This document shows, one piece after another, positions 1-64,000 of a stretch of DNA of 64,000 nt. Positions within the stretch are counted from its first letter, which is position 1. Each line of letters begins with the position of its first letter. Source of the DNA: Paraspadella gotoi (lineage: Eukaryota; Animalia; Chaetognatha); contig CM119269.1 in NCBI GenBank assembly GCA_051294375.1, positions 6,309,919-6,373,918 of the forward strand, in the 5' to 3' direction. Both the position numbers and the translations under genes were made by a program. The notes below the pieces were generated by a model. The model ran no database searches. It was not told where the DNA came from and worked only from the letters and a program-made list of their open reading frames with translations.

Positions 1-2
1 AG

Positions 3-110
3 CGATTAAAGTTGCTGGAGCAACAAGACGCAGAGGCGGCTGGAGTTCCTTCTGAAGCGCCGGCTCTCGAGGCCCTAGAAGAGGCGCCCGCTCCGACCAA
101 CGGACAGTAG
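3..110 (+). CDS. 3' end of an upstream gene, partial and unidentified (…RLKLLEQQDAEAAGVPSEAPALEALEEAPAPTNGQ*)
   Basis: Open GC-rich frame from the window start to TAG at 108-110, with composition like neighbouring exons. Confidence 0.65.
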   Translation, partial: RLKLLEQQDAEAAGVPSEAPALEALEEAPAPTNGQ

Positions 111-136
111 GAGGTCGCGAAAGACTGTCACTCCCC

Positions 137-931
137 ATGTCAGGGTCGATCCCCGTGAACAGCTCGAGACCGTCGCCGGCCGCGGTGGTTCTGCTCTCCG
201 GGAAGCGAAAATCAGGCAAAGACTTCATCGCCGACCGATTGGCCGAACGTCTTGCGCCCCGTCGGGTTTTTGTTGTTAGATTAAGCGCTCCACTCAAGAG
301 GCAATACGCGCTGGAAAATGGGCTCGACTTTAAAAGGCTGCTGGATTCCTCCGGATATAAGGAGTTACATCGAAAAGGTTAGCGGGTGAAATAAATATTT
401 TAGATGCTTTTTATTAGTAACTTAAAGTTAGTATCCGCTTGTTTGTCTTTTTTCTTTTAGCCATGGTCGTTTGGGGAGAAAAGAAGCGAGACTGCGATCG
501 CGGATTCTTCTGTCGCGCCGCCATCGATGACGCTCTTCTCGGCGTCGACGACGAGGTCGTCGGGGAAAGCGTTTGGATCGTGCCCGACGCCCGACGACTC
601 TCCGACCTCCAGTTTTTTCGGAACTTTTTTTCCGACTGCCTGGTGATTCTGACTTTCGTCGCGTCTACGCGTCGAGGCCTAAATATTAAGAGACTATCGA
701 GCCTTTTTATTTCCATCACTCTTTCAGATGACTGTGCGCGTTCGGGCCTCGGAAGAAACTCGACGCGGTCGCGGGTGGGCGTGGTCTGCTGGTGTGGATG
801 ACGCGGAGACGGAGTGCGGACTGGACGCCGTGTCCGAATGGGACGTCGTGGTTGATAACGAAGGCGTCGACGGAGAGTTGGAAGAGTTGTTCAGAACATT
901 GGAATATGCCTTCGTGAAACACTCGCCGTAA
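137..931 (+). CDS. PMVK: Phosphomevalonate kinase, animal type; exons 137-377, 461-642, 728-931
   Basis: LLSGKRKSGKDF P-loop, RLSAPLKRQYA, YKE.HR..MVVWGEKKR, W.V.DARR.SD and GVDDAETECGLD motifs; GT-AG introns are phase-compatible. Confidence 0.95.
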
Positions 932-1170
932 ATTCTTCGTCTTTTGGAGGGCCTTTCTGCTCTGATTATTATTGTTAAATGTTCAATGTGTTAAATATTC
1001 TAGCTTATATATAATTTAAATATTCTTTTTCTGATATTTTCTTTAGATTCCAAGTATGACTAACATGACTCGTAGCCTTCAACGTCGCTATTCACCGTAA
1101 TAACCTTTCCGATTTTAAACTCACGTGATATTCCGCATGATAAAAAAAATAAGCCCTCGAAAGAAAAAAT

Positions 1171-1808
1171 ATGATTGTCTCGGACACCAGCGCCCTCTTG
1201 TTTGATCTCTTTCTATTTCTCTCTTGGTTCCGCGGCACTTACGCAGACGGCTCCGAAGATGTCGCCGCATCTCTTAATGATACGGCTTCATCGACGGCGG
1301 CGCCTGTCGTGGAGACCACCGCATTTCCTTCAAACGGGACATACCCCGGCAGAATTGGCGACCTCTGGCAGAATCGCGGGATGATTCTGAGGATGACCTA
1401 TGTCTTAGTCGGCGTCTCTCTCCTCGTCCTTTGCTACTTTCTCGTCAAGGCGATTAGGATGAGGAGGAAAAGGTTAAATCACTTTGGAAAACAATTAAAT
1501 CACGGTAACAGGGGATTGCCTATTAATATATTTAATTCCAGTTCGTTTGCGTTTGTTTACAGAACAAAACCTCGCAAGTACGGAGTGCTTATAAACGAGG
1601 ATAAAATGGAGATATCAGCCCTGAGGGATGACGAGGACGACGACGAAGTACGATTGCGCATAATTGTGTATTTTGAATTGTAAAGGACGGTGACTTGTAC
1701 TCATGATTTTGTTTTTTTTTCTAGGTTGAAGTTTTTGAGGTCAACGGATCAAACATCCGGGGTGGGAGAACTTCTGACGGTGGCGCCGCTACTCGCCTTT
1801 TGCCTTAA
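1171..1808 (+). CDS. FAM174: FAM174 (DUF1180)-like single-pass membrane protein, 3 exons
   Basis: Signal peptide, S/T-rich ectodomain, TM helix YVLVGVSLLVLCYFLV, then RKYGVL…MEI..L.DDEDDDE..VFE tail typical of FAM174. Confidence 0.8.
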
Positions 1809-2651: not shown

Positions 2652-5600
2652 ATGGACCGGGAACTCGGACCCTCGAGAAAGGAGAGACTCACGCGGATGG
2701 TGAGCGATCCCGGCGTCTTGTTGCCGCGAGAGGGCGCCTTCGATCGGCGACTTTCGGAGGCCCGAACCGCGCCCGCGGCTAGAATGCGGGTGCCGCAAAG
2801 GTGATATAACTTATAAGAGAAATGAGAATTAAACCATGTCTGTTATCAGTTACGGTTCATTTCAGGACGACAGTCCCGGCCGAGGACACTTTGGCTCAAA
2901 TCGCGCTGGACGCGGAGTCGCGTTTGGCGGCGAAACGTCGCGAGCGCGCCGAGAGGCGGACGATCAAACTCGCAGAAATCAAAAGACGACAGACGATCGA
3001 GGAGGAAGAGCGAAAGGCCGCCGGAATCAAGTCTCCCTCGGGTAAGAATCAATCAAGTTAGTTTATATACTTATAGTATGCTATGAATTTTAGAATGTTT
3101 TTTTTTGTTGCATGCAACGTGTGACTCACAGGTCACCCCAGATTCTATATCTCAAATGATGTCCGTAGTGAAAGTCGCATATGAAAATTCTAATGGTTAT
3201 TTACGAACAACGTACCACCAGTAAACATTAATTTATTAAAAAAAAAAAATTTTGTTTTTTAATTTTCGCAGTAGGCTCTATTTTTATATAGTACTTTCCT
3301 TAGGAGAAAAACAATTTTTATTTGTTTTGACAACGAATTTTAGTGACAATTTGACAGACATGTTTCGACTCTGTATTTTTAGAGTCTTCAACACTAGTCT
3401 TCAACACTAATGCCCATAAACAACGAAATCGAAAGTCTATACACAGTACTTTCCTTAAAAAATCCTAAATTAAAAAAAACTATATTTTATATAAAAATTT
3501 AATGTTCTACTTAAAATAAAGGTTTTTTTATACATTAATAATGTTCATTAGTGCAACATTGTTCATTCCTCACTTTTAGAATTTTAATTAAAGTTATATT
3601 TATAATTTTTACTACGCCTTAATGTCTGTCCCTAAGAAAATTATTATTATTATAATTCTAATTATTATTACTATTGGCCGGTGTTAACTGCATCCATTAT
3701 AATATTATTCAAGTAATAGTTCCATCCAACTTCCTTTTGACGAAAGAGCTTCAAAACTATATTTACCTATGCGAATGATGTACGTAACGCTAATGTCGAT
3801 CTTCATCTTTTAAGATCCTTGATATATTTTTCGACAACCACCTGTTTTGAGAGATTTTCTGTCTGCCCTCAGCGCGAGAATGGGGACCCGCTTGCTTCCC
3901 GAATTCGCTTGATTGAGTTGCCGCCTCATGTAGATGGAGTTGCTTGACTTTGTCCCCTGATCTCTTTTTTCTTGTTCGCATTTATTGTTAACATAGGAAC
4001 TTTTTGCAACCATTCCTGCAATAATTTGTTTGCTCTGTTTTCCTGTTTACCACGTCATTCTCGACTAATTTGTTACTCCGACAAAACCGGTTTAATTTTT
4101 TACGTCGATGCTTTCTTCTGCATATTGGGGTTTTTCTGTATAATTTAGGCTTTGCCGTTTTCGCTTTTACGATTAAAACGTTTTCGTAATGGACTGGATT
4201 AAATCACTCTTACGTGAGTCACCAATTTACTAGGGTTCGAATTGTATTCAACGCAATTAGAAAATATATTTGTCATTTTTTTTATCAGTTCTTTTTTAAA
4301 ATTTATACATATTAACTTTTCAAAAAACCGGTTTTAGAATATATTTACGTATTAATTACAGAGATATAAATAATTTTCTAAGTTGAAAAACATTTTTATA
4401 TGATGCTTAATTTTCAACGGCGTTAAAAATTAGTAATTAGTACTTGCGTCGTTATTTACAGAAAACTTGTAATCTAAAGTTTTGCCCCATCATCGACGCT
4501 TTAGAGAACGGCGACGGGATGGCTTCCAGCGCGTCGTCAACTTCGTCCGGATTAGAAAAAGAGGGTCGCCTCAGGAGCGAGAGTCAATCATCTCTTCCCA
4601 AGGAGCGCGCTGAATCTTTCGAACCTGCTCGTCCGGGTAAGTTCGTATCGCTATAACGTTATTTCCACCAGTTTAGAAAACAATTCCTTTAAGCCGCAAC
4701 TTTTTCGATGATTCAATTGATTCTCGTTACGTCACTTTAGACGTTCTGCCACGAAGCGGCAGCGCGAGCGGACGCCGCGGCAGCGACGCCTCCTCCCATT
4801 CGAACGACGCAGACGGAGAGTCGCGTTTCGTTGCTCACCGAGAACACAAGGAGCTCAAGCAAAAGTTCTCCGAGTTGGAGGAAAAGTTCAAGAAGTGCAT
4901 GTTGACCAACGAACAGCTGGACAACGAAAAGTCCGCCCTTGCCTACAAGCTCGACCTTTACCAGGACAAGTACGATGAACAGACGGAACACTTGGCCGAG
5001 GCCGAGCGGATGCGACGAGAGAAAGCGCGGGAAGTTGACCGCGGGAAGAGGGAGATCGCCGAACTCGAGCGTAACGTCGGCCTGCTACGTCTGCAGCTTC
5101 AGCAGCGGCAGGACCTGATCGAGGAGCACGGACTCGTTTTAATCGGCGGTGAAATCGTCGACGTCGCGCAAGACGAGGGTGATGGAAGCGGCGACGCTAA
5201 CAAGACGTCCATAGTCGGCTCGGCGGCGCTCGTCACGCCGGCGGCCGCGGCGTTGCTGCAAAAGTCGGCCGGCGTTGAGGGAACTTTGGATGCTCGGCTC
5301 CGGCAGTTCGCCGTCGAGAAGGAGGAATTGCGGGAGACGGTTCGTCGTTTGAAGGCGGAGTTGGAGACGTCGAAGGCCTCTCCCAACGTCGTCGTCACGA
5401 ACGGACTTCACAACAACGACGACGACCCCCACGGCACCATCGAGGAGATCGACGACGTCTCAAAAGTCAAAGAGGATCGAAAGAAACTAGAAGAGAGCAA
5501 GCTGAAGCTGGCCAAAGCAGAGCTGGAGATGACCAACCTCGAAGCCACCGTCGCCCGCTTGGAGCAACAAATCAAACGCCATCAAGAACTGCTCGTCGAA

Positions 5601-5777
5601 AGCGAGCGGTCCGAGGAAGAGCAGAAGACGGAGAAGCGAAAGTTGCAGCGAGAGTTGAGAGACGCCATGGTGCAGGTGGAGGAACTCACCACCGCCAACA
5701 AGCACCTGCAGACGAGACTCGAAAAGGTCAGGGCCGTCAAGGGAAACCTGCAGAGCGAACTCAACAAACCTATTTAA
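2652..5777 (+). CDS. LRRFIP2: LRRFIP1/2-like coiled-coil protein; exons about 2652-2800, 2866-3041, 4504-4637, 4741-5777
   Basis: N-terminal EDTLAQIALDAESRLAAKRRERAE and coiled coil EEKFKKCMLTNEQLDNEKSALAYKLD…KTEKRKLQRELR…NKHLQTRLEK. Start ATG is in ccgccATGg context; in-frame ATGs at 2697 and 2784 are alternatives. Confidence 0.9.
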
Positions 5778-7013: not shown

Positions 7014-9160
7014 ATGGCGACGGTCGCGCAACACAATAAAAAGAAAATATGTTACTATTACGACGGAGACGTGGGAAATTACTACTATGGACAGGGGCAT
7101 CCGATGAAACCGCACAGAATTCGCATGACTCACAATTTGCTCCTAAACTACGGACTCTACCGCAAGATGGAGATCTACCGGCCACACAAAGCCACCATGG
7201 AGGAGATGACCAAGTACCACAGCGACGACTACGTTCGGTTTTTGCGAAGCATTCGACCCGACAATATGTCCGATTACAATAAACAGGTCTGAAGCTGTAC
7301 TTGTTTAGAGACGACTCTTTCAATCTCTCTACCACTTTTTATCTTTCGAATCGCCTCTTTCTAACTTTTCTTTCTTCTTCTTTCTTCAGATGCAGCGGTT
7401 CAACGTGGGCGAGGACTGTCCCGTCTTCGACGGTCTTTACGAGTTCTGCCAGATCTCGACTGGCGGCTCCGTCGCCGGCGCCGTCAAGCTCAACAAGCAG
7501 GCGACAGACATCGCCATCAACTGGGCGGGCGGGCTCCACCACGCCAAAAAGTCTGAGGCGTCGGGGTTTTGCTACGTCAACGACATCGTCCTCGCCATCC
7601 TCGAGCTGCTCAAGTATCACCAGCGCGTTCTATACGTGGACATCGACATCCACCACGGAGACGGAGTCGAGGAGGCCTTCTACACCACCGATCGAGTCAT
7701 GACCGTCTCCTTTCATAAGGTAACCCTTTCGAAATTCTTAACATAAATTTCAATAAGAAAATAATATTGATATTCTTTTATACTGTTCCTCACCCTCCGC
7801 CCAGTACGGGGAATACTTTCCCGGAACCGGAGATTTGCGCGACATCGGCGCCGGAAAAGGGAAATATTACGCCGTCAATTTTCCCCTGCGCGACGGCATC
7901 GACGATGACTCTTATCAATCGATCTTCCAGCCCGTCATGTCGAAAGTGAGCGAGAGAGAGAGAGCGAGAGCGATTTGACAGACGAAATCTTAATTCTTGT
8001 TAAACTTTTGCCTAGGTGATGGAGCGTTTTCAGCCGTCGGCCATCGTCCTGCAGTGTGGTGCCGATTCTCTTACTGGGGATAGACTTGGCTGCTTCAACT
8101 TAACCCTCAAAGGTCACGCCAAATGCGTGGAGTTTATGAAGGGCTTCAACCTTCCGCTGCTCATGCTCGGCGGTGGAGGCTACACCATCCGGAATGTTGC
8201 CAGGTACGCGGATTTATTAACTGAGCGTGAGGGAAAATTGAACAAATACTTAACTACGCTTCAGTACAATCCCAGACAAAAATCATATAATTTTTATATC
8301 CCAATCACGTTCAGATGCTGGACGTTCGAAACGGCGACGGCCCTCGACGTCGACATTCCCAACGAACTCCCCTACAACGATTACTTCGAGTATTACGGCC
8401 CCGACTTCAAACTCCACATCTCTCCCAGTAACATGGCCAACCAAAATACCACGGTAGTCATAATCCGTCAAAAGGGATTATTTAATTATTGTAGATTCGT
8501 TAAGAAATATGAATTGCATTTTTATTAGGAGTATATGGAAAAGATAAAGACGCGACTTTTCGAGAATCTCCGAATGTTGCCCCACGCCCCCGGAGTCCAG
8601 ATGCAGACGACGCCCGAAGACGCCATCAACGATGAGAGCGACGACGAGGAGAAGGAAGATCCCGACAAACGAGTTTCAATCCGCGCCAGGTAGTTTGTTA
8701 GGTCTTTTTTTTAATTATGCTATAATTATTAATTAATCTTCGTTGTTTTTCAGTGACAAACGCATCGCGTGCGACGAGGAATTTAGCGAATCCGAAGACG
8801 AGGGTGATCCCTCTTCCGGCGCCGGCGGTCGACGAGACCGGACCCATCGCCGGAAAAAACCCAGGACCGACGCCGCCGCGGCCGGATCGAGCGCGGGTGA
8901 GGGGCGCCGGCGCTGCAATGTTTTAAAATTCGGTCGTTGAAATTAATTTCTTTCCCTGAAATCAATTCTAATTAGGAAAAGACGCCGATTCCAAAGAAGG
9001 CGGGGACGATTCTGGGTCAAAAGACGCCGAGGCGAAGGAAAACAGCGCAGCCGGAACCTCGGAAGCGCCGGCTTCGAGTTCGGGCGTCGCCTCCGGCAAG
9101 ACGACCGAAGTCGCCGCGTCATCCTCAAAAGACTCAGCGCCCGACTCTTCTACAAAATGA
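7014..9160 (+). CDS. HDAC1: Class I histone deacetylase HDAC1/2 (Rpd3), about 8 exons
   Basis: [66 protein letters not shown] and [17 protein letters not shown] motifs. Confidence 0.98.
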
Positions 9161-9621
9161 TCCTTTTTTTTTTTAATTTCGCATTCAGTCATTTTAGTCA
9201 TTTATCAGTTAAAGCGAATAGAATGCTTTAGGTTTTTTTGTTTTCATTCCCCATCTTGTCATTTTGGCATCGTTGTTTGGTCTCGATCTTTTGACCTTTT
9301 TTCTTTATAAGACAAACTTTAACGAGGAAAAAAAGTGTGATATTTAATTTTTTTCGCCGCCGTTTGTTGCTAGACGTAATTCATCGGAACAAAGTCACGA
9401 GAAAGACAATCTCACATTGAAAGTCAGAAAGTTTTTATTTAGCTCGCATCCCTCAACGCAACCCATGCCCGTTGTTTCTCTACATTCTTGTATATTGTGT
9501 TTTTTTTTGTTGTTTTTTTTTCATAAAGGACTTCATTTCGACTATTTCCAAGTATTTTAACCAAATGTTTTTCTTCTTAATACGTTAGATTTTTGTTAGA
9601 AGCTTCCGACAAATAGGAAGC

Positions 9622-11432
9622 ATGGACGTATACATGAGCAGTTTGGAGGAATACCTGTTCGACGAAGGACGGACGGTGACGTAAGTCGAGGGCCTCAGCG
9701 ATGCTTTTAATTTAAAGGTTCTCTTTAGCCATCGTCTTTTTCTCTCTGGCAGCTACAAATGGCTGAGCTGTACCCTCGATGTCCACGTCAACGTAGCCAA
9801 ACAAATGCTCTGGCACTTTTTGGAATCAAAGGGCGAGGGGCTGACGGCGGTGTTTCTCCTCGCCGGCGAAAGGGAAGAGCCCGCCACGCGGACGACCAGC
9901 CTCGTCGTGAAACTCGTTCGTCAAACTGGTTTGGAAGAAGCCAAGAAAAGTTTGAAGACCGTCGTTGGCCTTCACGTTTACAGGTAGTTTATTTTTTGGT
10001 TTGTTTAAAAGATAAATCCTTCCTGTCAAAGATAGATCCTCCCAGTCTCAGCAAAAGCGCGGTCAAAGACTCTTCGTCTCTCTTGTTGGCGAACAGAGAG
10101 TCGGCTTCTTTTTCCTCCCGCGCCAACTCGGCCGTCGTCTCGGATTCTTTACGAGTTCTCTCAGAAGAAGAGGCTCTGGCGAGACGGAACTCTGTCTCGG
10201 CGCAGTTGCAATCCGTTCCAAAGTCGTCGACGGGCGCCGCTAAAGTCGCCAAGAAATTGGAAAAGAACGAGGAGAAAAAGCCTGATGTCAACGGCGCCGG
10301 TAGTGGACCAAAAGGAAAGGCACCGGCCGGCGTCGCCGCCATGTTTGGCAATGCCAAGGTCAAGCAGAAGACGGCATCGCGACCCGTCAAGGCGTCCGAC
10401 GAAGTCGTTGAGATTAAAAAAGAGGATCCGTCGGACGACTCCAAGCCCGTCGCCGTCGCCGTCGCCAAGGCATCAGCCAAGGCCAAGTCCGCGGCGAAGA
10501 CCTCCTCCATCGGGTCGATGTTCGCCAAACAAGCGGGGAAAGTGAAGAAAGAAAAGGAGGAACCAAAGAAAGAGACGACGACAACCGAGCCGACGAATAA
10601 GCCGACGATAAAGGAGGAAGCGAAAGACAGTCCCACTGAAAGAGAAAAGAGTTTGAAAGACAGTGTGGCAGGCGATACCAAACCGATAAGCAAACCAGAG
10701 GAAAAAAAGGAAAAAACGCCAAAAGTTCAAATTGAAAAGTCGGAAAAACGAAAGCACAACGCCGCCGAGGATGACAGCGACGCCGGGAAAAAGGTCAAAA
10801 GGCGCCGGGTGAGGCAGATGTCCGACTCGAGCGACGAAGAGACTCCGATGGAGGCGGAAGAAGTTGAGGAGGAGGAAAAGGAGGTCGAGAAAAAGGAAAA
10901 CGAAGATCCTAGGTTCGAAAAATTTTTTTATGGAAATGTTTATTTCGTTTTCGTCATTTTCTTTTTTTAAGATGTGTTACGTTTCAAAATTTATCGTTTC
11001 AGCTCCAAATCGACGGGATCTCAGAAACGACCTCTTTTGAGCGACGACGACGACGTGATTCCCGCCACGCCCCCGCCAGCCGCGACTTCGGCGGGAAAGA
11101 AGAAATTGATTAAGATTCGTCGTCTCAAAGATAAAACCTACGTGGACGAGGAAGGGAATTTTGTGACGGAGAAAGTGATGGGTTCGGAGGAAGAGGAAGA
11201 GGAGGAGGAGGAAGAAAACTCGCGTCTTGGTCAGGTAAAACAAATGTTTCAGGAGAAGAAAGATAGGGCGGAGAAAGCGGCGAGGGAGAGGGAGGATAGG
11301 GAGAGAGAGATGACGGCGATGGAGGACGAGGGTGAGGAGAAGAAGAAGAAGAAATCTGTCGCGGCTAAAAAGAAGAACTCGCCGGCGTTCGGAAAACAGA
11401 TGACGATATCCACGTTTTTCAAAAAAAAATAA
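9622..11432 (+). CDS. POLD3: DNA polymerase delta subunit 3 (p66/Cdc27)
   Basis: N-terminal VTYKWLSCTLDVHVNVAKQMLW, KTYVDEEGNFVTEKV and a C-terminal PIP box KQMTISTFFKKK. Confidence 0.93.
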
Positions 11433-11659: not shown

Positions 11660-12968
11660 ATGGCCTTCAACAGCATCCGTCGGATTTTCTCTCGCAAATC
11701 CCGCTCCGACCCCAGGATGGGAAACGCCAACGGCGTCAAGAATCCCTGCGGCGAAGCGGACGCCAAGTCTCCCGTCGAGATCAAGTATTCGCTCTCTAAC
11801 GGCGTCACGTTGAACAACGCCAAATGTCGAAATTCCTCTTATCCGCAAGATCCCGCCATCGAGAGGTTTCACGTTCCCGACGACAAAGTGTCTTGGGCGC
11901 AAGCGTGGAAGGAGTATACCCCTGGTAAAGTGATTACGAATGTCGAATAACCAGAAGAGCAAATCGTCGAAATTAAAGCAACGAATCATCCTTCAGTCGA
12001 TTACACGTCTCCTGTGGTCGCTCAACATCCTCCCTGGGCCGATCCTGACATCCCCGACCGCAAATTCGCGTGGAACGAGAGAGACGGGAAAGTTAATCGC
12101 CATAGTTTCGTCAAAGACTATGAAATCGTCGATGGGAGACCACGAAATCCCGTCGGCAGAACCGGAATTGTCGGTCGGGGTTTGTTGGGTAAGTTGCGCC
12201 GCTTTGGTCTGTCCGATCCGTTTCTTCTACCTACGGCCTCTTTTCGCTCAAAAAAGGAAAGTGGGGCCCCAACCACGCGGCTGATCCCATAGTGACGCGA
12301 TGGAAACGAGACTCAAGCGGAAACAAGGTGCTCGACTCAACCTCAAAACGCCCCATTCTTCAGTTCGTCTCCATTCAGCGCAAAGATTCTGGCACATGGG
12401 CTATCCCGGGTAATTAAGGATTTCATTCTTATTTGTTTTTTAGGATAACAGCAACAACGTCCTTGTTTCCTCCTCCAGGAGGCATGGTTGACGACGACGA
12501 AGAAGTCAGTCTCACATTGAAGAGAGAATTTGGCGAAGAGGCTCTCAATTCCCTGAAACTATCGGCCAAAGAACAGGCCCAGTTCGAAAACGAGCTCAAG
12601 ACTTTCTTTCTCAAGGGATACGAAGTTTACAAAGGTAGTGGCTTTCGTCAATCTTCCACTCTTTGTCGTAATGATAATTTATTGATAATTAATAATTAAT
12701 AATAATATTAATTAATTAATAATTACTAATTGTTTTGTTTACAGGCTACGTGGACGACCCCCGCAATACGGACAACGCTTGGATGGAAACGGTGGCGGTG
12801 AATTTCCACGACGACGACGGGACGCAAGTCGGACGATTTCCACTCTCGGCCGGCGACGACGCGGGCGCCGTTGCCTGGTCGGACATTGCAGATGGCCTTT
12901 CGCTCTACGCCAGCCACGCCCAGTTCGTGCGCAAAGTGGCGGATCTTCGAAACGCCCATTGGGAGTGA
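11660..12968 (+). CDS. NUDT9: ADP-ribose pyrophosphatase NUDT9
   Basis: [43 protein letters not shown], Nudix box PGGMVD…LKREFGEE and [16 protein letters not shown]. Confidence 0.96.
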
Positions 12969-13641: not shown

Positions 13642-16398
13642 ATGGCATCGACGATCGACGTGGATTCCATCACCCCCGCGGACGATGTCCTTTCAAGGCC
13701 GAAACTCCCGACTCCGGTCCCGGACGGACTCCCCGCGGGCGATCTGTCTCATCAGGACATCGCGCAGTTCTTCGCTGGGAGATATGTTTTTCTCACGGGC
13801 GCCACTGGATTTGTCGGGAAAGTGAGTAGAAGAACGCAGCTACGTAGATTGTGACGTAAAGTGAAACCGAAACTAAATTGGATCAACCAATATAAAAAAT
13901 ATTTATTCATTCGATAAGTAAGCTATCTTGCCTCCGACTTGGGACAACTGCTATGTTGTCTTATATTTTATATTTCTGGTGACAAAGTAACAAGAGTTAT
14001 TTTATTTTTATTTGTACAACGATGATTAGTACAACGATGATTAGTACAACGTAATTATTTAATCATCGTTGTACTAATGAAAATAAAATAACTCTTGTTA
14101 CTTTGTCACTAACTTCCAAAAACAACGAAAATGCTACGTTTATATTTCTAATATTTCTATATTTTTTCCTTACCTGCCCCTTTCCCCATCCATCCCCAAA
14201 TCCGACACATTCTCCAGGTGTTGATAGAGAAGATCCTTTACTCTTGCCCTCGAATTGCGGGATTCTACGTTCTCATTCGACCCAAGCGTGGACGAAGCAT
14301 CGAAGAGAGGGTGGCCCATTTGGTCAATGTCAAGCTGTTTGACCGCGTTAGAAGCAGAGTATGTGCGCCATTTGGGTTGAGAAATAAATATGTAGCACCT
14401 CAGGTTGTCATCTCTCCTCTTCGATCACAGGATCCGGACTTTGCCAAAAAGATTCTGCCGATCAATGGCGACATCTACGAACCGAATCTGGGAATTTCGG
14501 CGCAGGACGAAAAGCTCCTCGTGGAGAATGTCTCCGTCGTGTTCCATTCGGCCGCCTCGGTCCGATTCGACGATCCTATCAGGCTCGCCGTCGAGATGAA
14601 CGTCAGGTATCATTTAATGTTTTGGTTTTTTTTTCTCATACGTATGTGTTTATTTAGTTTAAAATCGTTCCTGAATTTTGTATTTTTTACATTAGAGGGA
14701 CGGAAAAGATCTTGGCCCTCTGTCGGCGAATGAATCGTCTCCTGGCGGCGATTCACGTCTCGACCGCCTACGCCAACTGCGACCGCGCCCAGGTCCTTGA
14801 ATCCGTCTACCCACCGCCGGCGGATTTTCAGAAATGGACGGCACTGATCGATTGGATGGACGACGCCACACTGGACAAGCTCACTCCTTCGTTGCTTTGT
14901 TAGTTTTAATATTGATTTTTAATATTAATACATTCTAGCTGTCCTTACTTGACTATTTCCCGTAGGCGAGCGGCCTAACACTTACACATACACTAAGGCC
15001 ATTGCGGAGCACATCATCTCCGAAGAGTACGCCAAGGAAGAAGATCCCGACAAGAGAGTTCCGATGGCAATCGGTAGGGAAAGATTCCCATTTTTTCAGT
15101 CCCCTTCTCTATAATTCATTTTATTGAGAAAAGTATGAAAAATAAGTTTCTTCGCAGTCCGCCCCTCCATCGTGGGCGCTTCGTGGAAAGAGCCTTTCCC
15201 CGGGTGGATCGATAACTTTAACGGACCGACGGGAATCTTCGCCGCCATCGGCAATGGCCTCCTTCGCGTGATGAAAGGTAAGCGTGTCCCCCCGAGGGAA
15301 GTTGATTTAAAGTTTCGCCAACAACGAAGAGCTTCAGTGAGATCCTCTTTTGATTCCAGGCGACGCGGAAGCTACTGCGGATGTCATCCCCGTCGACGTC
15401 ACTGTCAATGTCTTGATCGCCAGCGCCTGGTTTACCGCCACGCAACGACCCAACGGCATCGTGGTTTACAACTGCACCACCGGTAATTGGACCCCTCTCG
15501 CTTGTTTTTAGCTTTTTCTTCTTTAAAACATAATTTTTGTATGTAGGAGCCATCAACCGATTGACTTGGGGTCAGATGGAAAAAGTCTGCACGGCGACGT
15601 TGATCGAGAATCCGCTAGAGCGCGCCATTCGCGTTCCCCACGCCGTTTTCACCAAAAGAACTCTGTGGCATTCGCTCAAAAGATTTTTCGATGAGGTTAA
15701 AAAAATATTTTCTTTTCTCTTTTTCCTTTTATTTTATCGAATTTGCTTCTCTTATGTTAGGTGTTACCCGCCTACGTGTTGGACCTCGGCCTGGGCCTGA
15801 TGGGTCGCAAGACTGAGTTCATCCGCCTGCAGGATCGCCTGGCCAAGACGACCTCCTGCCTGGAGTTCTTCACCTCTAACGGGTGGGAGTTTTCCTCCGA
15901 CAACGTGCTCGTCCTTAAGAAGGCGCTGGCCGCCTCGGATCGTCAGTCCTTCAATTTTGACGTCGAGGGGATGGACTGGAATGATTATTTGGAGAACTAC
16001 GTCATCGGTACGCTCCCTTTAAGACTTTTGCCTTCACAGTTTAAAATACATTAGCCGAAGGCGTTAAATTATCTTTAAATTTATTTCCGCCTCTCTAAGG
16101 AACCAAAATCTACGCGCTCAAAGAAAACATTCAAAATCTTCCTGTCGCTCGAAAGCATTTACGCCGACTGAGATACATTTCATGGGCAGCGCAGGTAAGG
16201 CGTCGCAGAACGAAGCCTCTCTTACGGCGATCAAACGAAAATATTCTCGTTTATGCCCCCCCTAAGGTGTTCTTGGCGGTGCTGCTGTGGCGATTCCTCG
16301 TTTCCAAAACGGCGTTCGCCCGACGCATTTGGCTCTTGATCCCCACGGCGTCGGCGGCCGTCGTCAAGGCGCTCCCCGACGTTGCCAAGGCTCGCTAA
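13642..16398 (+). CDS. FAR1: Fatty acyl-CoA reductase
   Basis: TGATGFVGK Rossmann motif, [51 protein letters not shown], Sterile domain and C-terminal TM. Confidence 0.96.
13979..14109. repeat. 131-bp foldback (palindromic, MITE-like) element in FAR intron 1
   Basis: Perfect 30-bp terminal inverted repeat GTGACAAAGTAACAAGAGTTATTTTATTTT / AAAATAAAATAACTCTTGTTACTTTGTCAC, with internal TAGTACAACGATGAT units. Confidence 0.85.
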
Positions 16399-17775: not shown

Positions 17776-18906
17776 ATGCCCTCCACTCCGGATTTTACAT
17801 TGAACGTCTTGGTGGGCGGCGTTCCGCTGCCGGAATACGTCGGCGCCGATGGGCGCCATTTTGTCGAGTCTCCGTTGACGACGCCGGTTTCTTACAAGGT
17901 CGAGACTTCAGAAATGACCGCTCATGGAGATCTGGAGACGCAACGGTGGCCGGTTACTCCTTATCAGGTGAGGGAGAATGGTTTTTTGAAGAAGCACCCT
18001 TTGCAACTACCGCTCATTGTAAACGCTCTTGCACATTTCTATCCCTCAAGGTGCGAATCCAGGCTCATCTCTCCGCCCCGCACACCTACTATCACATCTA
18101 CGTGGACGGGGTGCTCGCCAAGAAAACGTCGATCCGCCCGGGAGCCAGCGTCACCATCTTTGGGTTCGACGACCAACTCGCCGTCAAGGAGTTTCTCTTC
18201 TCCCTCCCGCGATTTCCTAAACACGAGCACGACAAGTTGGAGAAGACGCGAGTGTCCAAGGTCGGCGTCATCGAGGTCGTCGCCTTCAACGCCACCAAGG
18301 GTGAGGAAGAGAATGCCAAAGGGTTTTCGTAATCGAGGTTTTTAAATAACCTCAGTCTTTTTCGATTCACCAACAGTGAAGGAAAGGATGGAGCACCGCT
18401 CCAAGGCACTCAGCTTCGAACAAGCCTCCAAAAAAGACTGCTCCTCAGTGACGCAAGGCAACCACACGATGAGCACAACAAAAGTGGGAAAAGTAGTTCG
18501 GCAGAAGGCACTCTGCAGAAAAGTGGACAAATGGCGGAAGCTCGGAGTCAGGAGCACGGCAGAATTGCATTACAGGTTTATAACTTTATAAATCTTTTTT
18601 TTTTTTTTAACTCTTATCACCTTTTGGCCAATGAAATCAAAATTAATCTAAACTGGAATTCCTAGAATGGGTCACTCTCTCGAAGACATGGGATTCGTTC
18701 TTCAACCAATCAACGTTCCGCAACCCGCCCTCTCACAACCCACAAACGATAACTGTAAAGTGAAGCCAGGCACGCCCGCCCCAGCCTCCTCCGGCCCCGC
18801 GACCGAGACCGAACCCTCCACCTCTCAAGTCGTTAAGCAAGAACCCATTCCCTTCAACCCTCCAAACCCCATTGTTCCCGGGGAAGTGATCGTTTTGGAT
18901 GATTGA
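17776..18906 (+). CDS. Uncharacterised protein resembling the DUF7918-type family; exons about 17776-17967, 18051-18300, 18376-18574, 18666-18906
   Basis: Four phase-compatible exons. Motif order V.VGGVPLPEY…VES…IYVDG…FGF…EFLF…VGVIEV…LHYR…LEDMG recalls DUF7918 (from memory, not searched). Confidence 0.75.
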
Positions 18907-19248: not shown

Positions 19249-19717
19249 ATGGCGCCGAAATACGCGATGGCCATTGGGCGCGTCCGAGACAAGGGATTCC
19301 GCACGACGAAACACAAGGCTCCGGTCAAACCCTCCCGTAGAAAGGGAGTTCAGCACAAAGTAAGATTAAATTTTAAAATCCGTGACGTTATGTAAAAAAT
19401 ATTTGACTAAAAATCTAATTTTCGCAGCGCGTAAAATTCGTGAGGGAGCTCGTGCGCGAGTTGGCGGGATTCGCTCCTTACGAAAAGCGGTGCTTGGAGT
19501 TGTTGAAGGTGAGATTCGTTGATATCTGACGATCGACGGCTTCGATCTTCTGTTTTACTCCTTTTTTTTTTTTTTTTTTTTGCAGGTCTCCAAAGATAAA
19601 CGCTGCTTGAAGTTCGCCAAGAAGAGGCTCGGTGCCCACGTCAGAGGAAAGCGAAAGCGAGAGGAAATGCAATCGGTCTTGCAAGCGCAACGCAAAGCCG
19701 CAAGCGCCAAACAATAA
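19249..19717 (+). CDS. RPL36: 60S ribosomal protein L36, 3 exons
   Basis: KPSRRKG…[54 protein letters not shown]. Confidence 0.97.
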
Positions 19718-25839: not shown

Positions 25840-25869
25840 AAAATAAAATTACTTCTTTTTTTTCGTTTG

Positions 25870-25874
<5 letters not shown>

Positions 25875-47700: not shown

Positions 47701-50072
47701 TTTCTTTCTTGTGCTTCTAAATTTATTAAAAACTCTTTTTTACTTTTTTTTTTCGCAGGGCTACCTCTGACGATTCGGACCAAGAAAAATCTAATACGAA
47801 TAATAATAATAGTAATATAGATAAAAATAATATAAAGCATAATAAAAATAAAAAAACTAATAAAAACTTTGGAGAAAACTCCAAACAAAAAGAGAAAGAG
47901 GAAGATACGGTTGTAATAACTACCTCTTCGTTCCCCGGAATAACTAGTAGAAAAGTAAAGATGAAAAAGAATCACGACGAAGAGGACGACGACGTGTCGT
48001 GGATGGAGGGATTGACGGAATCTCAAATCGAGATGATTTTGAACGATACGGGTTAGTTGTCGAAATCGAATATCGATTTGTAAATAAGGGTCGACTTCTT
48101 ATATTATATTAATTCATATTAATTTATTGTACATTTTTCTCTGCAGAATCGTCGAAGGAAAACGCGGCGACGTCCCAACTCGTCAACGGCGTTCCTCTTC
48201 CTCCGCATCGTCTTCTTAACCAAGCGGTAAGTTTAAATTTCCCCCCATAATGAAAGTAACTGAAGAAGCCATTTCTTTATGTCTACATAACATTTCGGAC
48301 AAAGAATTACTCTTAATTGATTATTAAAAAAATGTCTTTTTCCCAGACTCCCGCGTGGGTCGCGACATCCGAGCAGGATGTGTTATTCGGAGCGGCTAAA
48401 CCTTCGAACGATTCTCCTCGTCAGGGTGCACAAAATATCGTCCCTGGAACTTCGCATCCGCCCGCGCCAGGTCCGCTTAAAGCCCCGATTCTCATATCGG
48501 TCCGCTTCGCCACGAAAGCCCTTTGGTTCGCTGCTCGTCGATAGATCGCGGAAAAATAAAAGAAATCGTGGCGAGGCGGACCGATATAGAATCGTCATTC
48601 CATAAAAGAATTAAGGATTATAACCCCGCATATGGCCTCCTTGGTCGACAACCTGGGCCCCTCACTTTTCCTGCCCCTCCATTGGCTATCTTCATGGCCC
48701 TTAACGTGATTCCCTACTTACCCTCTCTTCTTGCCCTCTCTTCTAGTTACGTCCTCTGACGCGTCCGTTCCCGCTCCCTTTTACACGCCTACTACCTTAC
48801 CCGCTCCCATAATCCCTGCCATGCCCTCCTCCTCAGCCTCTGCCGCAAGGAACGCTGGGGGTTCCATCATCCCGCCGTACGCCCCACGGCATATAATTAT
48901 AGACGGATCCAACGTCGCCATGCATCACGGCAACAATAAGGTTGGTTTATTTTCGTGGCTTTCCAATTTAGGTATCACGTAAAGTGATTAAGCATCGTTT
49001 TTCGATTTTTTTTTCAGATATTTTCCTGTAAAGGGATCAAACTCATGGTGCAGACTTTTAAAGAACGAAATCACGAAAACATCACCGTCTTCGTTCCGCA
49101 GTGGAGACAAGCGACAGGATCCCACAATAAGATTAAAGACCAAAAAATTCTTTTGTAAGTTTCCCCCCTCCGACTATAAAGTATACATTATACAATAATC
49201 AATATACATACGGAACTTTTTTAACGGCTATTGTCCAATGTCCATATCAAGGTTTATTTTTTGTTTAAATTTTCAGTCAACTGGAGAAAGAAAATATTGT
49301 TAAGTTCACGCCATGTCGCAACATTCCCGGGGTGCCACGGATGAACAGCTACGACGACAGGTTTGTCGTGGAACTGGCCGTTAGGACGCGTGGCGTTATC
49401 GTATCCAACGACAAATTCCGGTGAGGAAAAAAGGAAAAGTAATTGTTAATATAAAAAATGATTCTTTCGGAATATTAAACATTACTTATGTCTGTTTATA
49501 TTATATATTACAGTGACCTAATGGGAGAAAAAGAAGAGTTCAAGGACGCAATAATCAACCGTCTTCTCCCTTATGTCTTCGTCGGCGACTTGGTCATGTT
49601 GCCCGAAGACCCGATGGGGAAGGCGGGGACTCATCTGGATGAGTTTCTGCGCATCTCGAAGTAAGTACTATTTTTCAAGGATCATGATTGTAGCGATTTT
49701 GTTCATATATTGAGTTGCTCTTTTCTCCTTTCCTTTGTAGATTCGAAATGAAACGTTTTCCCAATTCAATTCCGGACTCGGTAAAAACTAATCAGATCTC
49801 GCAAATAAATTTTACAACAAATGATCCAGTCGCGCAGGTCAGTTAAAAATTTGGATTTTTCCTATCGCTGGTTTATTATTATGTCATAATTAATTGTTCT
49901 TGGACGCCTTTTTTTTCAGAACTTCCGTTCCGAAGAAGAGACGGAAGATTTCCGTCTGCAACTGGGGGAAATGTTCCCCCCTTACAGGGCGCAAGTGGAG
50001 CAAACCCTTGAGAAATTGCCGAAAGAAAAAAATTTGAACGTTTTGGCGACGTATCTTTTGACTCTAATTTAA
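44794..50072 (+). CDS. N4BP1: N4BP1/KHNYN-like protein: KH-like N-terminus, NYN/PIN RNase, C-terminal CoCUN/CUE-like domain
   Basis: [37 protein letters not shown]….[29 protein letters not shown]…LDEFL; last exon 49920-50072 [18 protein letters not shown]…[11 protein letters not shown]. Confidence 0.88.
46744..46850 (-). mobile_element. Related copy of the 3' part of the SINE family (intronic)
   Basis: TATGGCAAC…GCCTGTGAT.CCC…GACCCTCAGTGAC..CTCC.GTCACTGGC is shared with 47194-47300; a shorter related tail lies at 30612-30680. Confidence 0.65.
47194..47400 (-). mobile_element. tRNA-derived SINE in an N4BP1 intron
   Basis: Minus-strand Pol III A box TGGCTGAGCAGG (47381-47392) and B box GGTTCAATCC (47340-47349); no tRNA cloverleaf seen; related copies elsewhere in the window. 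Confidence 0.7.
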
Positions 50073-59300: not shown

Positions 59301-61848
59301 ATGTGGTCGCAAACGACGATTACGAGCTCCGACTATAGTGTCGTCTCCGCTTCTTTTCCCGCCGTTTCCTCGCTTGCCCACATCCGACTGACCTTCAGCT
59401 CTCGAGACCTGCCCCTCGCTGCCGACGTACGGTCCAGGGTCGTCTTGACGACGCGTCAGCTCATCTTCACGGAGGCAGATCTGTTAGCGGCGCCCGAGAT
59501 CAGCGGCGGAGACGAGGAACCGAGGTGATTTACCATCGCGTTCCCACACTCATCGCTATTATTAATTGCACGATGTTACTCCCACCCTCTCCCCCTAATT
59601 CTCTCAAGTATTTCCATTGTTTTGCCGCGCGCCGCCGACGCCGCCGCGGATTCTCCGCTCCTTCTTCGCCTGCGGAAACTTGGTCTCCGTAGTTCCCCCG
59701 CCACTGAATGCGCTCTCGCAGTTTTTCGGGTAATCTGTTCAAACCGGCTGGCTCTATACATTCTTCCCACGACCTTCAGATCATCCCGATCACGCTCGTT
59801 CTTTCCAAGGAATGCCTGTCTTATACTTTAACGGCGCGATTGGCGCCCCAGTGGAACCGCGTCGGCGCCTTCCTGGTGCAGGGACGAGACTTTCTCACCT
59901 CCGGTGCTAAGTTGGGCGCCGTGCAGGCCCGTTTCGTCGCCGGCGAGAATCAACTCACGATCGCGTTGAGAGCCAATCGGGTCAGATTGATTCCTATCAA
60001 GTTGAAAGGTGCGAGAAGGAATAAATTTAAAAGTAGAGAAGCCGGCATGGATGGTGGATGAGTTAGTTGTAAGTTCTTAGTTAATTAATTATAAGGCCGC
60101 TTTTAGGCCGCTAGAAAGTAGCTTTTATTCTATATTCAAATACATCAATGATCTATTGTTTTTACTTTCGACGACAGTCGTCGCGGGCGAATGATTGGGG
60201 AGTAAGTTAAAAACAAAAGATTTGCTCGCAACCTGTACGTAATCGTTGTACTAAGAACGTGATTGTTTACTTATTATATGAATCGACCAATAGATTTGGG
60301 CGTGGCTCCAGAAGAGGCGGATTCCTGCCGTCTTACCCAATCGAGTAGAGGGATCCAGGATCAAGCTGGAGAAGAGACGTCTCGCCGCGCCGTCGTCGAC
60401 GCTCACTGTCACGTCCTTCCGACGATGGGCAAAGGACGGATAGTGGCCGTGTCCAAGCGGGTTCCTTTATCTGGCGGAAATGATCAGTTCTCAACCTACC
60501 GGTGGTTTTGTGTTTTTTCTTTGGGCGTGAGAGAAAAAAAATTAGAAGAAAGGTTTGACGAAGAAGTTTATTCGTCTTGGCAGAGATTTGAAACGATACT
60601 GGAAAAACTCTTACGGTTATCGTTTGCCGGATGACGAAGACAACGACCAACTCTTCTTTTTTCGCGTGCGATTTTGGAATTTTCCTGGAGAATTTACTTA
60701 TCCCAGGTGTGACGGTGGACGGTTAACTCGTCTTGGTGTTTTGTACGAAACTTTGATTCATTGGGTTTCAACTTTAGCGTTTGTGTTCGTCAATCGATCG
60801 TCGAATTCGTCAGGGAAGACCCAGCTCCAATCATTAGCGATTTTCTACATGATCTCAAGGTGACATTTAATACTCAAAAGATTATTTATAGATAAGTAAT
60901 TTCAATTCTATTTCAGATTTATAATTACTACGTAGATCTTTTTCCTTCATCACCCGATTCTCGCAGACGAAAGTTGCGACTGTCTGCGGCCATGTTCTGG
61001 ACATTTCTCCTCAAATAAGTTATCCAAGCGTTCGTCTAGAGGCGGCCGGCGAAACGGACTCTTTTATATCTAATATCACATCGACGCCACCCGCTCCGAA
61101 AAAAAACCTCAAAACTGTCTATCCTTCCTCTACGTCCGTTTTGTCCTCGGGATCCGTCGAGACCGACTCCGCATGCCACGCCTCCCGCCAGAATTATTCA
61201 ACCCCGAAGAAGATCGTCCCGATCTTTAAGCCACGCATCGGTTTCGCTCGGTCTACATCGAAAATTTCGCCCTTCCTGAAGTCGGCCTCGCCGCCCCCAA
61301 AAGTCATTCCTTCATTTACGCGCCGAATCGAAGCCATTAATTTACCTACCAACAAAGCTGATAACGTCGAAAAGTCAGGCGAGTCGAGATCAGATCAATC
61401 AGCGGCCGTCCCGATGAAACTTTCCTTTGCGCCAAAGCGTCCGCCCGCGTCTTCGTCTCTTGCGAATTCCGGACCCAAAGCGAAACCTTCGTTCGCGTCC
61501 AAAGTTTTTCCTCTCTCACCAAATGGTTGTCATTCGACGGGAAAAGTCGCTCGTCCTCCTTCGTCAAATCCCCCGAAAAACTGGCCCCCGTCCAAAACTG
61601 CTCCGGGCCTCGGTGGGGAGCCGCAGCCGCCCGCCAAGAAGCCGCGCGCCAAGCCCCGCCCACAAGAGGGCGTCGATGTGGCGGCGTTGGCGGCCGCTGG
61701 CGGTACGATGAGCGGAGTGACCGTAGCGACGTTGGCGGCGTGGCTCTCCTCGCGTGGAGTCACTTGCAAAGCCAAGGATAAAAAACCAGACCTTATTAGA
61801 AAAATTTATACGGTTTTGGGAATCCCTGTTATAGAACGAGAGGGATAA
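59301..61848 (+). CDS. C18orf63: C18orf63-like (DUF4708) protein with a C-terminal SAP/HeH-like helix pair
   Basis: CLSYTLTARLAPQWNRVGAFLVQGRDFL, CHVLPTMGKGRI, YWKNSYGYRLP, FTYP; tail VTVATLAAWLSSRGVTCKAKDKKPDLIRKI. Confidence 0.85.
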
Positions 61849-62141
61849 AAGTATTAGTCTAATTTTGTTTTCTTCGCGTTTTGTTTCCAATCATTTTTAG
61901 CTCTACGTCTCCCACTTAGTGGGTTTCTTAGTTTTAATTTAGTTTTTTTTATTTAACTCGCTCATATTTTTATCCAGATTAGTCGGTGATTGTCGAACCA
62001 TTTGCTTTCCTGAATGATAAAAGAAAGAACATTAGAACATATGACTGATTGTGACTCTTGTCTCCGTCATTTTTCTCTCGGAAATAATATGGCCATTACG
62101 TGTTTTTATACTTCCTCCTTTTTCCGTCGAACGATCCCGTG

Positions 62142-64000
62142 ATGACATCTCCTGCCCCCGTCCCCTCCAATGCCGAGGCGATGGAGAAGCTGTTTGAGGA
62201 GGCGAAGAAAAACGTGAGGTCGCTTCTCATTTCCACACAGGATGGACTCTCGACGATGGATATTCTCAGAGATTATTCTAACTTCGTCAACAAGCCTCTG
62301 CCTTATGCGTAAGTAGTATGTAGGTGAGGTAAACACTACGATAAATTAGAGTAGGATTTGATGGCAAGATTAGGTAATTTTCTCTTTTATTAGAGAGTTG
62401 GGTCATTACTCGGTGGAATCATTGCTGATGAACATGCCGGACGTTTGTTACCCTATCGGCGGCTACGGTCATTTCGTTCACTGGGTGGCGGTCGCCGACT
62501 CTTCCACCGCCCACATCCAGAAACTGGTTCAATGCCAGCGCGGAACAAAGAGAAAGGAACACGCCCCCCGGTTCCGAATGCCGGATACTATAAAGGGTTA
62601 GTCTAACCTTGGGTGAAGTTTCAAGTGGAGGGGGCTGCGAATGTGGCAGGGGGGAAGGAAAGGCTTATAGAATATCAATTTTGATTTAATGTTCTAGGAA
62701 ATTACATCCGGGAAACCGGGCAGGGCCTCGGGGCGGCCGCTCCTCTTCGTGGCAGAGATAACGATGCCCGACGAAGGCCCAATCGCTCTCCCATGCCGTT
62801 CTCCAACCGGCGCGGTCCTCCGCCTAGTTTGGATTTGCCTTTGGAGCAGAGGTGAAGGCGTTTGGTAACTGATAATTGGGTTCAGATTCACAAATCAAGC
62901 CTCTTTCCGTCTTTCCTACCCTTAGCGGTCATCAGTCCATTCCGCGCGCGCTCTCTGGGCGCGACGGGACGCTTAGCAAACAGTCGTCGGTAACTGCGCG
63001 CGCCGATCCACGTTGGTTTCGCAGCGATTCCGCTTCCGGCGGGGCGCCCACACCGACTTCCTCGTCGGTCAAAGTTGCAAACGGGTCGCGACCGCCCTCA
63101 ATCGCCTCGTCGCGATCGAGCGAGTCGGGTACGTCCGTCCCCGTCACCACAACCATCGTCCCCAGCGGCGCAAGAACGGCTGTTGTCACCATTAGTGAGA
63201 AAATCAAATTAATTATCAAATACAATTATCATTGTATGGAAAATAAATTTTGGACAGAATAATTACGTCATTCACGTTATTCTATTCCTCGAAGCTGCCC
63301 CGTCAAAGTGTGTCGAAACGGAGACTATCTCCCTCGTACCAACCCCAGCATCCTCCTCTTCCGTCAACGTCAATTTCGACAAACTCTGGGATGAATTCGT
63401 CCAAGATCGGCCCGTTGCTCCGGCGCCGCTTCAGTCCTCCAGCGCGGCGTCGTCGTCGTCGATGGAACCGTCGCTCGGTCGCGACATTCGCGCGACTTGC
63501 TCTTGGGTTCCGAAGTCAAACTTGGAATCGCGGATTCCGAAAGGAAGCTCGGGGTAATGGGTTGTAACCAGGCTAATTTATTATTAACTCGCTCACAGGC
63601 TGAAGCGCCCCAATTCTCCCATTTCCGTCCTTCAGTCCAAGTCAAATGTTCCGCATCGTCTTCGAGTATCGCGACCTCATCGACGTCCAGTTCAAGGGTC
63701 TCTACATGAAGTTCCCCGACGCGTTTCCGCTCAAAGAGGTCGTCTACGTCGATCCCGAAGACGAATTCAATGGGATTCTCCAGGTCGGGAGATTGGAGGG
63801 TATTAGAGAAAAAAGAGAACGAATGGGAAAGTTGGGTAAGAGAAAAGGAACGAAGGATAAGTTTGATACAAAGTCAAGGATAAAATCTTTGTTTTTCACA
63901 ATTAATGCTTACTTTTGTTCTCTATTTCGGATCAGGCGGTAAATCATCGCATCAGTCGTATGGAGGGAGTTTGGAGTTCTATAGAAGGTCCGATGATGGG
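62142..64000 (+). CDS. Extended-LOTUS domain protein, TDRD5/TDRD7-like; 5' part, truncated by the window end
   Basis: KKNVRSLLIST.DGL….ILRDY…LPY.ELGH.SVESLL.NMPDV…AVADSSTAHIQKLVQCQR is an eLOTUS signature; Tudor domains are not visible in the window. Confidence 0.85.

What the first reader, a model, noticed from the sequence alone, without database searches (positions are those of the whole stretch)
1..64000. About 23 consecutive genes all on one strand with acceptor-bearing spacers: candidate very large SL trans-spliced operon
Seen: every gene model in 64 kb is on +; with random orientation the chance is about 2^-22. Many stop-to-start gaps are short (RPL36 to gene A 219 nt, POLD3 to NUDT9 227 nt, C18orf63 to the LOTUS gene 293 nt). 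Most spacers contain a T-rich tract ending in AG shortly before the ATG (for example about 1046, 2237, 19219, 19847, 22095, 27483, 30156, 34430, 36067, 39466, 50385, 53959, 59278, 61977), often without an obvious upstream donor. Established: nematodes, tunicates, flatworms and chaetognaths resolve polycistronic pre-mRNAs by spliced-leader trans-splicing, usually in operons of a few genes. Inference: this is one very long polycistronic unit or a chain of operons.
Basis: partly seen in the sequence, partly recalled or inferred. Interest (0 to 1): 0.8.

Follow-up and report, generated by a model that had tools for sequence, protein, structure and literature searches.

The report
Long arrow-worm leader-spliced operon block
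In what is likely an arrow worm (chaetognath) genome, 21-24 gene models lie head to tail on one strand, RNA shows one of them carrying an arrow-worm-type leader joined at a splice acceptor, and the block is likely a chain of leader-spliced operons rather than the single giant one that remains possible.

Summary
The strand run is real. There are 24 gene models (21 if three related modules are one gene and a cut-off tail is dropped), 15 with Pfam hits, all on +; 0 of 190 minus-strand ORFs hit Pfam. Leader trans-splicing is seen once: an RNA contig carries 12 nt absent from the window, joined exactly after the AG at 1045-1046, and its last 10 nt equal the end of a published chaetognath leader. 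Close relatives' RPL36 transcripts carry such leaders (11 of 15). In 1-22 kb, RNA contigs fill or bridge the spacers, leaving at most about 430 nt at all 11 junctions and at most 250 nt at 9. The T-tract+AG motifs are not above chance in most spacers, and 2^-22 overstates rarity. Promoters could not be counted, and no RNA was laid beyond 20 kb. Best reading (0.62): several long chaetognath operons head to tail, a known mechanism whose published maximum is nine genes. One unit of 21 or more genes: 0.17. The scan noted operon-like junctions in other genomes, none in this one.

The parts
3..110 (+). 3' end of an unidentified reading frame cut by the window edge; stop 26 nt before the PMVK ATG
   Evidence: sequence; no Pfam hit; RNA cover from base 1 inferred from depth
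137..931 (+). PMVK, 3 exons
   Evidence: PF04275; model
1045..1046 (+). Trans-splice acceptor AG; 12-nt leader tail joined to base 1047 in RNA
   Evidence: table 7; no exact copy in window; last 10 nt equal F. enflata SL3.1/3.2 end
1171..1808 (+). FAM174-like, 3 exons; the leader-bearing gene
   Evidence: PF06679; both introns in RNA
2652..5777 (+). LRRFIP; RNA runs on without gap to 6627; candidate acceptors 2237 and 2399
   Evidence: PF09738; record 1
7014..9160 (+). HDAC1/2-type deacetylase, 8 exons; candidate acceptors 6925 and 6965
   Evidence: PF00850; 3 introns in RNA
9622..11432 (+). POLD3; candidate acceptor 9588
   Evidence: PF09507; contig start about 9616 inferred
11660..12968 (+). 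NUDT9; in one contig with the POLD3 3' end; only a weak acceptor in the 227-nt spacer
   Evidence: PDB 1Q33 E 2e-27; record 4; score 2.5
13642..16398 (+). Fatty acyl-CoA reductase, 11 exons; acceptor AG ending 13363; RNA covers 16779-17492
   Evidence: PF07993, PF03015; 10 introns in RNA; contig start about 13362 inferred
17776..18906 (+). Unknown 293-aa gene (G8); candidate acceptor 17517
   Evidence: model; record 6; no Pfam hit
19249..19717 (+). RPL36; candidate acceptor 19219
   Evidence: PF01158; 95% identical to P0133; leaders on relatives
19937..21252 (+). Gene A, unknown family; candidate acceptor 19848
   Evidence: matches relative P0202 along its length
22117..24271 (+). Unit B: separate gene or alternative 3' module of A; acceptor 22095
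   Evidence: similarity to A; relatives P0203, P0204; frame test
25399..25839 (+). Unit C: separate gene or alternative 3' module
   Evidence: relative P0200, 77% identity
27486..29510 (+). OXCT1 (3-oxoacid CoA transferase); candidate acceptor 27483
   Evidence: PF01144; closest single-domain-length relatives unnamed, 81-83%
30185..34247 (+). Gene D: three shared exons and five paralogous phase-0 alternative last exons; candidate acceptor 30155
34607..35265 (+). PX-domain sorting nexin (SNX3/12-like name recalled); candidate acceptor 34430
   Evidence: PF00787
36167..39143 (+). TM9SF family protein; candidate acceptor 36067
   Evidence: PF02990
39617..44249 (+). TM7SF3-like; candidate acceptor 39466
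   Evidence: PF13886, below the curated cut-off
44794..50072 (+). N4BP1-like NYN ribonuclease; candidate acceptor 44749
   Evidence: PF11977, PF23054
50454..53512 (+). CLPTM1; candidate acceptor 50385
   Evidence: PF05602
54006..55944 (+). UPF3; candidate acceptor 53959
   Evidence: PF03467
56393..58801 (+). Weak unidentified unit (G20): two exon-like blocks behind + strand acceptors; strand not secured
   Evidence: sequence; no Pfam hit; missed in flip control
59301..61848 (+). C18orf63-like (DUF4708); candidate acceptor 59278
   Evidence: PF15813
62142..63806 (+). Probable LOTUS-domain gene, 3' part uncertain; candidate acceptor 61977
   Evidence: PF12872 E 0.0016, below cut-off

Best explanation
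This block of 21-24 same-strand gene models, likely from a chaetognath, is likely transcribed as a few long operons set head to tail, each precursor likely cut into single mRNAs by spliced-leader trans-splicing at an AG in front of each downstream gene. Shown: the single strand; one leader joined at 1046/1047; RNA covering or bridging most spacer sequence in 1-20 kb. Inferred: the phylum (from leader sequences); leader addition at the other acceptors; polycistronic precursors. Untested: number and place of promoters. The likeliest breaks are the widest remaining gaps (LRRFIP-HDAC1, HDAC1-POLD3, B-C, C-OXCT, OXCT-D, SNX-TM9SF).
For:: run X1 is spliced RNA (15 listed joints, all GT..AG on +) and has a 12-nt loose end directly before 1047; no exact copy lies in the window. 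Chaetognath leaders end TTGTTTAAA, and F. enflata SL3.1/3.2 share the last 10 nt with the loose end (PMC2481426 Table 3). Of 24 RPL36 relatives (76-97% identical to exon 1), 15 have an N-terminal extension and 11 of those translate a leader tail; the five-residue tail peptides occur in 0 of 120 control N-termini, while the three-residue peptide behind 2 of the 11 occurs in 2 of 120. The OXCT relative P0005 begins LFK, the translation of the leader's last nine bases (by eye). PMVK stop to proven acceptor is 115 nt, leaving little room for a promoter. Record 4 spans POLD3 end, spacer and NUDT9 exon 1; record 6 spans G8 end, spacer and RPL36 exon 1. Depth arithmetic extends record 6 over the RPL36-A spacer (203.2 expected, 202.8 seen) to about 22000, and puts contig starts at about 13362, 17526 and 9616, beside acceptors at 13363, 17517 and 9588. 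The two longest early spacers are mostly RNA-covered: gaps shrink to <=338 and <=25 nt. X1 holds 0.63 of sampled words in 6900-16500, against 0.52 for coding exons alone and 0.70 for exons plus all spacers, so it is not mainly genomic DNA. Under the 250-bp rule used for P. gotoi, 1-22 kb falls into groups of 4, 1 and 7 models, in line with its nine-gene maximum.
Against: One leader, 12 nt long, in one contig of one run; other loose ends were cut from the table (50 not shown). A contig across two genes does not show one transcript; read-through or overlapping UTRs give the same picture. Acceptor motifs are not above shuffles. In P. gotoi about two thirds of trans-spliced genes are not in operons (10,197 trans-spliced, 18% of 21,072 operonic), so a leader does not prove an operon. 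No RNA test for 20-64 kb. The phylum rests on leaders, not on a named protein match: named OXCT relatives are all at most 74% identical.
Confidence: 0.62

Rival explanations
1. The whole block, and perhaps more beyond the window, is one polycistronic unit from a single upstream promoter, like a trypanosome directional gene cluster.
For: No strand switch in 64 kb and both ends open. All 11 junctions in 1-22 kb leave <=430 nt, so the 500-bp rule used for Oikopleura joins 12 models. From TM9SF to the LOTUS gene, all 7 junctions have <=500 nt from stop to candidate acceptor. A run this long is expected only 0.02-0.12 times per genome from P. gotoi operon counts.
Against: Published maxima are 9 (P. 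gotoi), 6 (Ciona), 9 (S. japonicum) and 14 with a 3500-nt rule (Pristionchus). Gaps of 645-1646 nt at 22-36 kb are untested; C-OXCT holds a GC-rich non-coding patch (59% over 150 nt). Clustering of ordinary operons in gene-dense regions would give such runs.
Confidence: 0.17
2. Most genes have their own small promoter within or just after the upstream 3' UTR and receive the leader through a short outron; only a few pairs are true operons, and bridged contigs reflect read-through.
For: Most trans-spliced genes of P. gotoi are not operonic. 19 of 23 stop-to-ATG gaps exceed 250 nt. Compact animal genomes without operons exist (Dimorphilus).
Against: It does not explain the strand run (0.001-0.01 expected per genome at random), nor gaps of 25-200 nt between RNA cover and the next acceptor, nor 115 nt before the proven leader site.
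Confidence: 0.18
3. The acceptors belong to cis 5' UTR introns or are chance motifs, and the loose end is an assembly artefact.
For: Motifs not above chance; 7 of 19 spacers hold a good donor upstream; only 12 nt seen.
Against: The loose end stops exactly at the AG and matches a published leader end; relatives' transcripts carry the same leaders; the two donor-like sites behind LRRFIP lie inside an ungapped contig (record 1).
Confidence: 0.03

Closest known systems
Chaetognath SL-resolved operons (Spadella cephaloptera RPS14-PCNA, PMC2481426; Paraspadella gotoi, PMC12460157)
   Same: Leader ending TTGTTTAAA; unrelated housekeeping genes including a ribosomal protein; short spacers; intron-containing genes.
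   Different: Same-strand run of 21-24 models against a published longest operon of nine (250-bp rule); the 12-nt tail matches no listed leader over its first two bases; species not determined.
Tunicate operons (Ciona, PMC2760879; Oikopleura, PMC11067885)
   Same: Compact genome, one leader system for operon and non-operon genes, functionally unrelated neighbours.
   Different: Ciona operons abut without spacer and reach six genes; spacers here are mostly 100-450 nt.
Nematode SL2 operons (Pristionchus, PMC4138322; C. elegans)
   Same: Intercistronic gap between 3' end and acceptor.
   Different: Nematodes use an operon-specific leader; none was found in P. gotoi. Predicted clusters reach 14 genes at a 3500-nt rule, fewer than this run.
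Trypanosomatid polycistronic directional gene clusters
   Same: Long one-strand arrays of unrelated genes resolved by a leader (passages).
   Different: Genes here are intron-rich (109 modelled introns); near absence of introns and cluster sizes in trypanosomes are recalled, not from a call; a single promoter is not shown here.

Membership tests
SL-resolved operon, chaetognath type | Adjacent genes on the same strand | tested here: met
SL-resolved operon, chaetognath type | Less than 250 bp between genes (rule of PMC12460157) | tested here: inconclusive
   4 of 23 by stop-to-ATG; 9 of 11 in 1-22 kb once RNA cover is counted, partly by depth arithmetic; UTRs unknown beyond
SL-resolved operon, chaetognath type | Leader joined at an acceptor of a downstream gene | tested here: met
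   one site, 1046/1047, 115 nt after the PMVK stop; indirect for RPL36 and OXCT from relatives
SL-resolved operon, chaetognath type | Leader of chaetognath form and not encoded in cis | tested here: met
   last 10 nt equal SL3.1/3.2; no exact copy in 64 kb; rest of genome not held
SL-resolved operon, chaetognath type | Polycistronic precursor RNA | tested here: inconclusive
   bridging contigs (records 4 and 6) are not single molecules
SL-resolved operon, chaetognath type | One promoter per operon, none in front of downstream genes | not testable with these tools
   no CAGE, ATAC or raw reads offered (one search listed contigs only)
Trypanosome-type directional gene cluster | Genome-wide long strand clusters with all mRNAs leader-spliced | not testable with these tools
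   no genome held
Trypanosome-type directional gene cluster | Almost intron-free genes (recalled) | tested here: not met
   109 modelled introns, 15 seen in RNA

The most novel reading that the evidence does not exclude
An animal transcribes 21 or more unrelated, intron-containing housekeeping genes over at least 64 kb from one promoter and resolves them all by leader trans-splicing: a trypanosome-like directional cluster in a chaetognath, more than twice the longest operon I found in print for the phylum.
Probability: 0.17. Interest if true: 0.8.

Novelty: new member of a known kind. Interest (0 to 1): 0.45.

Why it matters
Leader splicing and operons are already described in chaetognaths, so the mechanism is known. 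What is unusual is scale: the run exceeds every animal maximum I found (6, 9, 9 and 14 genes), and those maxima depend on distance cut-offs that break long blocks wherever a UTR is under-annotated. The locus offers a direct test of how long an animal operon can be and whether operons cluster by strand. If one promoter drives it all, animal transcription units can approach the trypanosome layout.

Tried and rejected
No genome is held, so genome-wide strand runs were not computed. RNA was laid only on 1-20,000; 20-64 kb has no RNA test. Runs X2 and X3 (other organisms) gave only short pieces. Stretches without contig cover (about 933-1046 and 9339-9615, arithmetic) are not used as evidence. Contig depth was not used to rank genes. 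The metagenome scan with an RPL36 relative returned 24 distant loci (37-60% identity) and no synteny. The HDAC exon search (44 hits) showed no close named relative. Rfam found 0 families in the window. No consistent poly(A) hexamer: AATAAA in 10 of 23 spacers. A k-mer hunt upstream of 19 candidate acceptors gave mostly T-tract words and ATAAA (8 of 19 vs 3.3), uncorrected for multiple testing. A MADS-box resemblance of the A/D N-terminus (recalled) was not supported: P0202 had 0 Pfam hits at E<=1 and no useful PDB hit. The atlas gave only scores under 0.8 for a D last exon; the G8 query did not complete. I first took the AT that ends the pyrimidine tract before unit C for a sequence error; a relative shows the same LCI residues there (P0209), so an error is unlikely. 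Earlier scan notes: none for this genome, eight on other genomes, none used.
Full report
Observation. I read the whole window and built 24 coding models, all on +. Fifteen are named by Pfam, NUDT9 by PDB, and A, B and C have unnamed relatives. None of 190 minus-strand ORFs of 62 aa or more hit Pfam. A two-strand gene finder trained on Pfam and RNA exons called no minus gene. At two stricter settings it called three short single-exon minus ORFs lying over + exons, and it found 8 of 9 genes that I flipped as a control. The unit at 56.4-58.8 kb is the weak point: if it is not a + gene the run is shorter or broken there. The count is 21-24.

Spacers. Stop-to-ATG gaps run from 26 to 1646 nt, median 473; 4 of 23 are at most 250 nt. 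The listed sites do share AG|ATT more than other acceptor-like AGs (6 of 14 vs 10 of 157, p=5e-4; noticed first, tested after), and the RNA-proven site has it. The 2^-22 figure ignores operon-driven correlation: expected runs per 21,072 genes are 0.001-0.01 at random, 0.02-0.12 with P. gotoi operon pairs, and 1.7-5 if 70% of neighbours share a strand.

RNA. One run, X1, holds 0.63 of the sampled words of 6900-16500; coding exons alone predict 0.52 and exons plus spacers 0.70. Laid on 1-20,000, its contigs skip GT..AG introns on + (15 joints listed, 19 not shown). One loose end, AGCTTGTTTAAA, lies directly before 1047, after the AG of the first listed acceptor. It has no exact copy in the window. 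In PMC2481426 (passages and section 12 read) nearly all listed chaetognath leaders end TTGTTTAAA, and F. enflata SL3.1/3.2 share the last 10 nt. A paper search for this tail with 'spliced leader' returned that paper and one kinetoplastid toolkit paper (listing only).

Relatives. The RPL36 first exon found 24 unnamed proteins at 76-97% identity. Fifteen have N-terminal extensions, and 11 translate a leader tail: VSICL in 4, LHLFK in 3, YFTCL in 2, and the short ACL of the loose end in 2. The five-residue peptides were absent from 120 control N-termini; ACL was in 2. So close relatives trans-splice RPL36 with chaetognath leaders, and the window is likely from a chaetognath. The species is not determined; named OXCT relatives reach only 74%.

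Bridging. Record 4 runs from the POLD3 end across the spacer into NUDT9; record 6 from the G8 end into RPL36; record 1 runs 850 nt past the LRRFIP stop; record 5 ends 25 nt before the acceptor at 17517. Because contig depth is flat, the binned depths can be solved for cover (inference). Record 6 also covers the RPL36-A spacer and ends near 22000. The leader-bearing FAM174 contig runs to about 2390-2400, past the acceptor at 2237. The FAR, G8 and POLD3 contigs start at about 13362, 17526 and 9616, next to acceptors at 13363, 17517 and 9588. All 11 junctions among the first 12 models thus leave at most about 430 nt, and 9 leave at most 250. Contigs are not molecules, so this shows little room for promoters, not a precursor.

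Mechanism. Most likely a few promoters each drive a precursor of several genes; cis introns are removed, each gene is cleaved at its 3' end, and the leader is joined at the next AG. Under the 250-bp rule the first 22 kb splits into groups of 4, 1 and 7. Under a 500-bp rule it is one group of 12, and the last eight models form another by sequence alone. I give the chain 0.62, one giant unit 0.17, mostly separate promoters 0.18, and cis splicing or artefact 0.03.

Comparison. P. gotoi has nearly half its genes trans-spliced, 18% in operons, the longest of nine genes (PMC12460157: passages, section 10, search of three supplementary PDFs; the spreadsheet with the operon table could not be read and may already list this locus). 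Ciona reaches six (PMC2760879, passages), S. japonicum nine (PMC12582326, passages), Pristionchus 14 at a 3500-nt rule (PMC4138322, passage). Oikopleura operons are defined at 500 bp (PMC11067885, passages; I saw no maximum there). The F. enflata genome preprint has no occurrence of 'operon' or 'trans-splic' (passages). Also seen as passages: PMC7986045, PMC2776167, PMC7854359. Nine paper searches showed no report of an animal operon of 20 or more genes; the library lacks most subscription journals.

Verdict. A real, well-supported example of a known system, notable for its length. Whether it is one unit is open and testable.

Noticed in passing
window 30185-34247: Gene D has five paralogous alternative last exons of 115-123 codons (acceptors 31904, 32424, 32950, 33420, 33890), all phase 0 and each ending in a stop; 20-41% identical to the first, no Pfam hit. 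The layout recalls lola or mod(mdg4) (recalled).
   Followed up: partly
window 19937-25839: A and D share an N-terminal domain (43% over 70 aa); A, B and C share a repeated C-terminal domain found only in 7 unnamed relatives' clusters. The flank of B's acceptor resembles A's exon 3 acceptor, but splicing there from A exon 2 meets a stop after 8 codons. B and C may be alternative modules, or partial duplicates whose old cis acceptor now takes the leader.
   Followed up: partly
window 25325-25360: A long pyrimidine tract before unit C ends in AT, not AG; splicing after it would be in frame with A exon 2, and a relative has the same LCI residues there (P0209). A non-canonical acceptor is possible.
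   Followed up: partly
window 108-137: Only 26 GC-rich bases separate an upstream stop (TAG) from the PMVK ATG, with no pyrimidine tract; a dicistronic mRNA, or the stop codon serving as acceptor, is possible.
   Followed up: no
window 11433-11659: The POLD3-NUDT9 spacer has only a weak acceptor (score 2.5) and is bridged by one contig; it may be an unresolved dicistronic mRNA.
   Followed up: partly
window 1047-1170: The 5' UTR behind the proven leader site holds three upstream ATGs, including a 14-codon reading frame.
   Followed up: no
window 30720-31100 and 40900-41480: Two introns in different genes carry related AT-rich tandem repeats (units like ATCATCGCATCAATGAATG), suggesting a small mobile or satellite element; seen by eye.
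   Followed up: no
window 3300-4050 and 16850: High-depth, multi-contig RNA signal with loose ends in the long LRRFIP intron, and a joint linking 16852 to 3357, point to a dispersed repeat.
   Followed up: no
proteins P0121-P0144: Metatranscriptome proteins keep translated spliced leaders at their N-termini; at least four leader forms can be read from them, one ending like the loose end seen here and not in the published table.
   Followed up: partly
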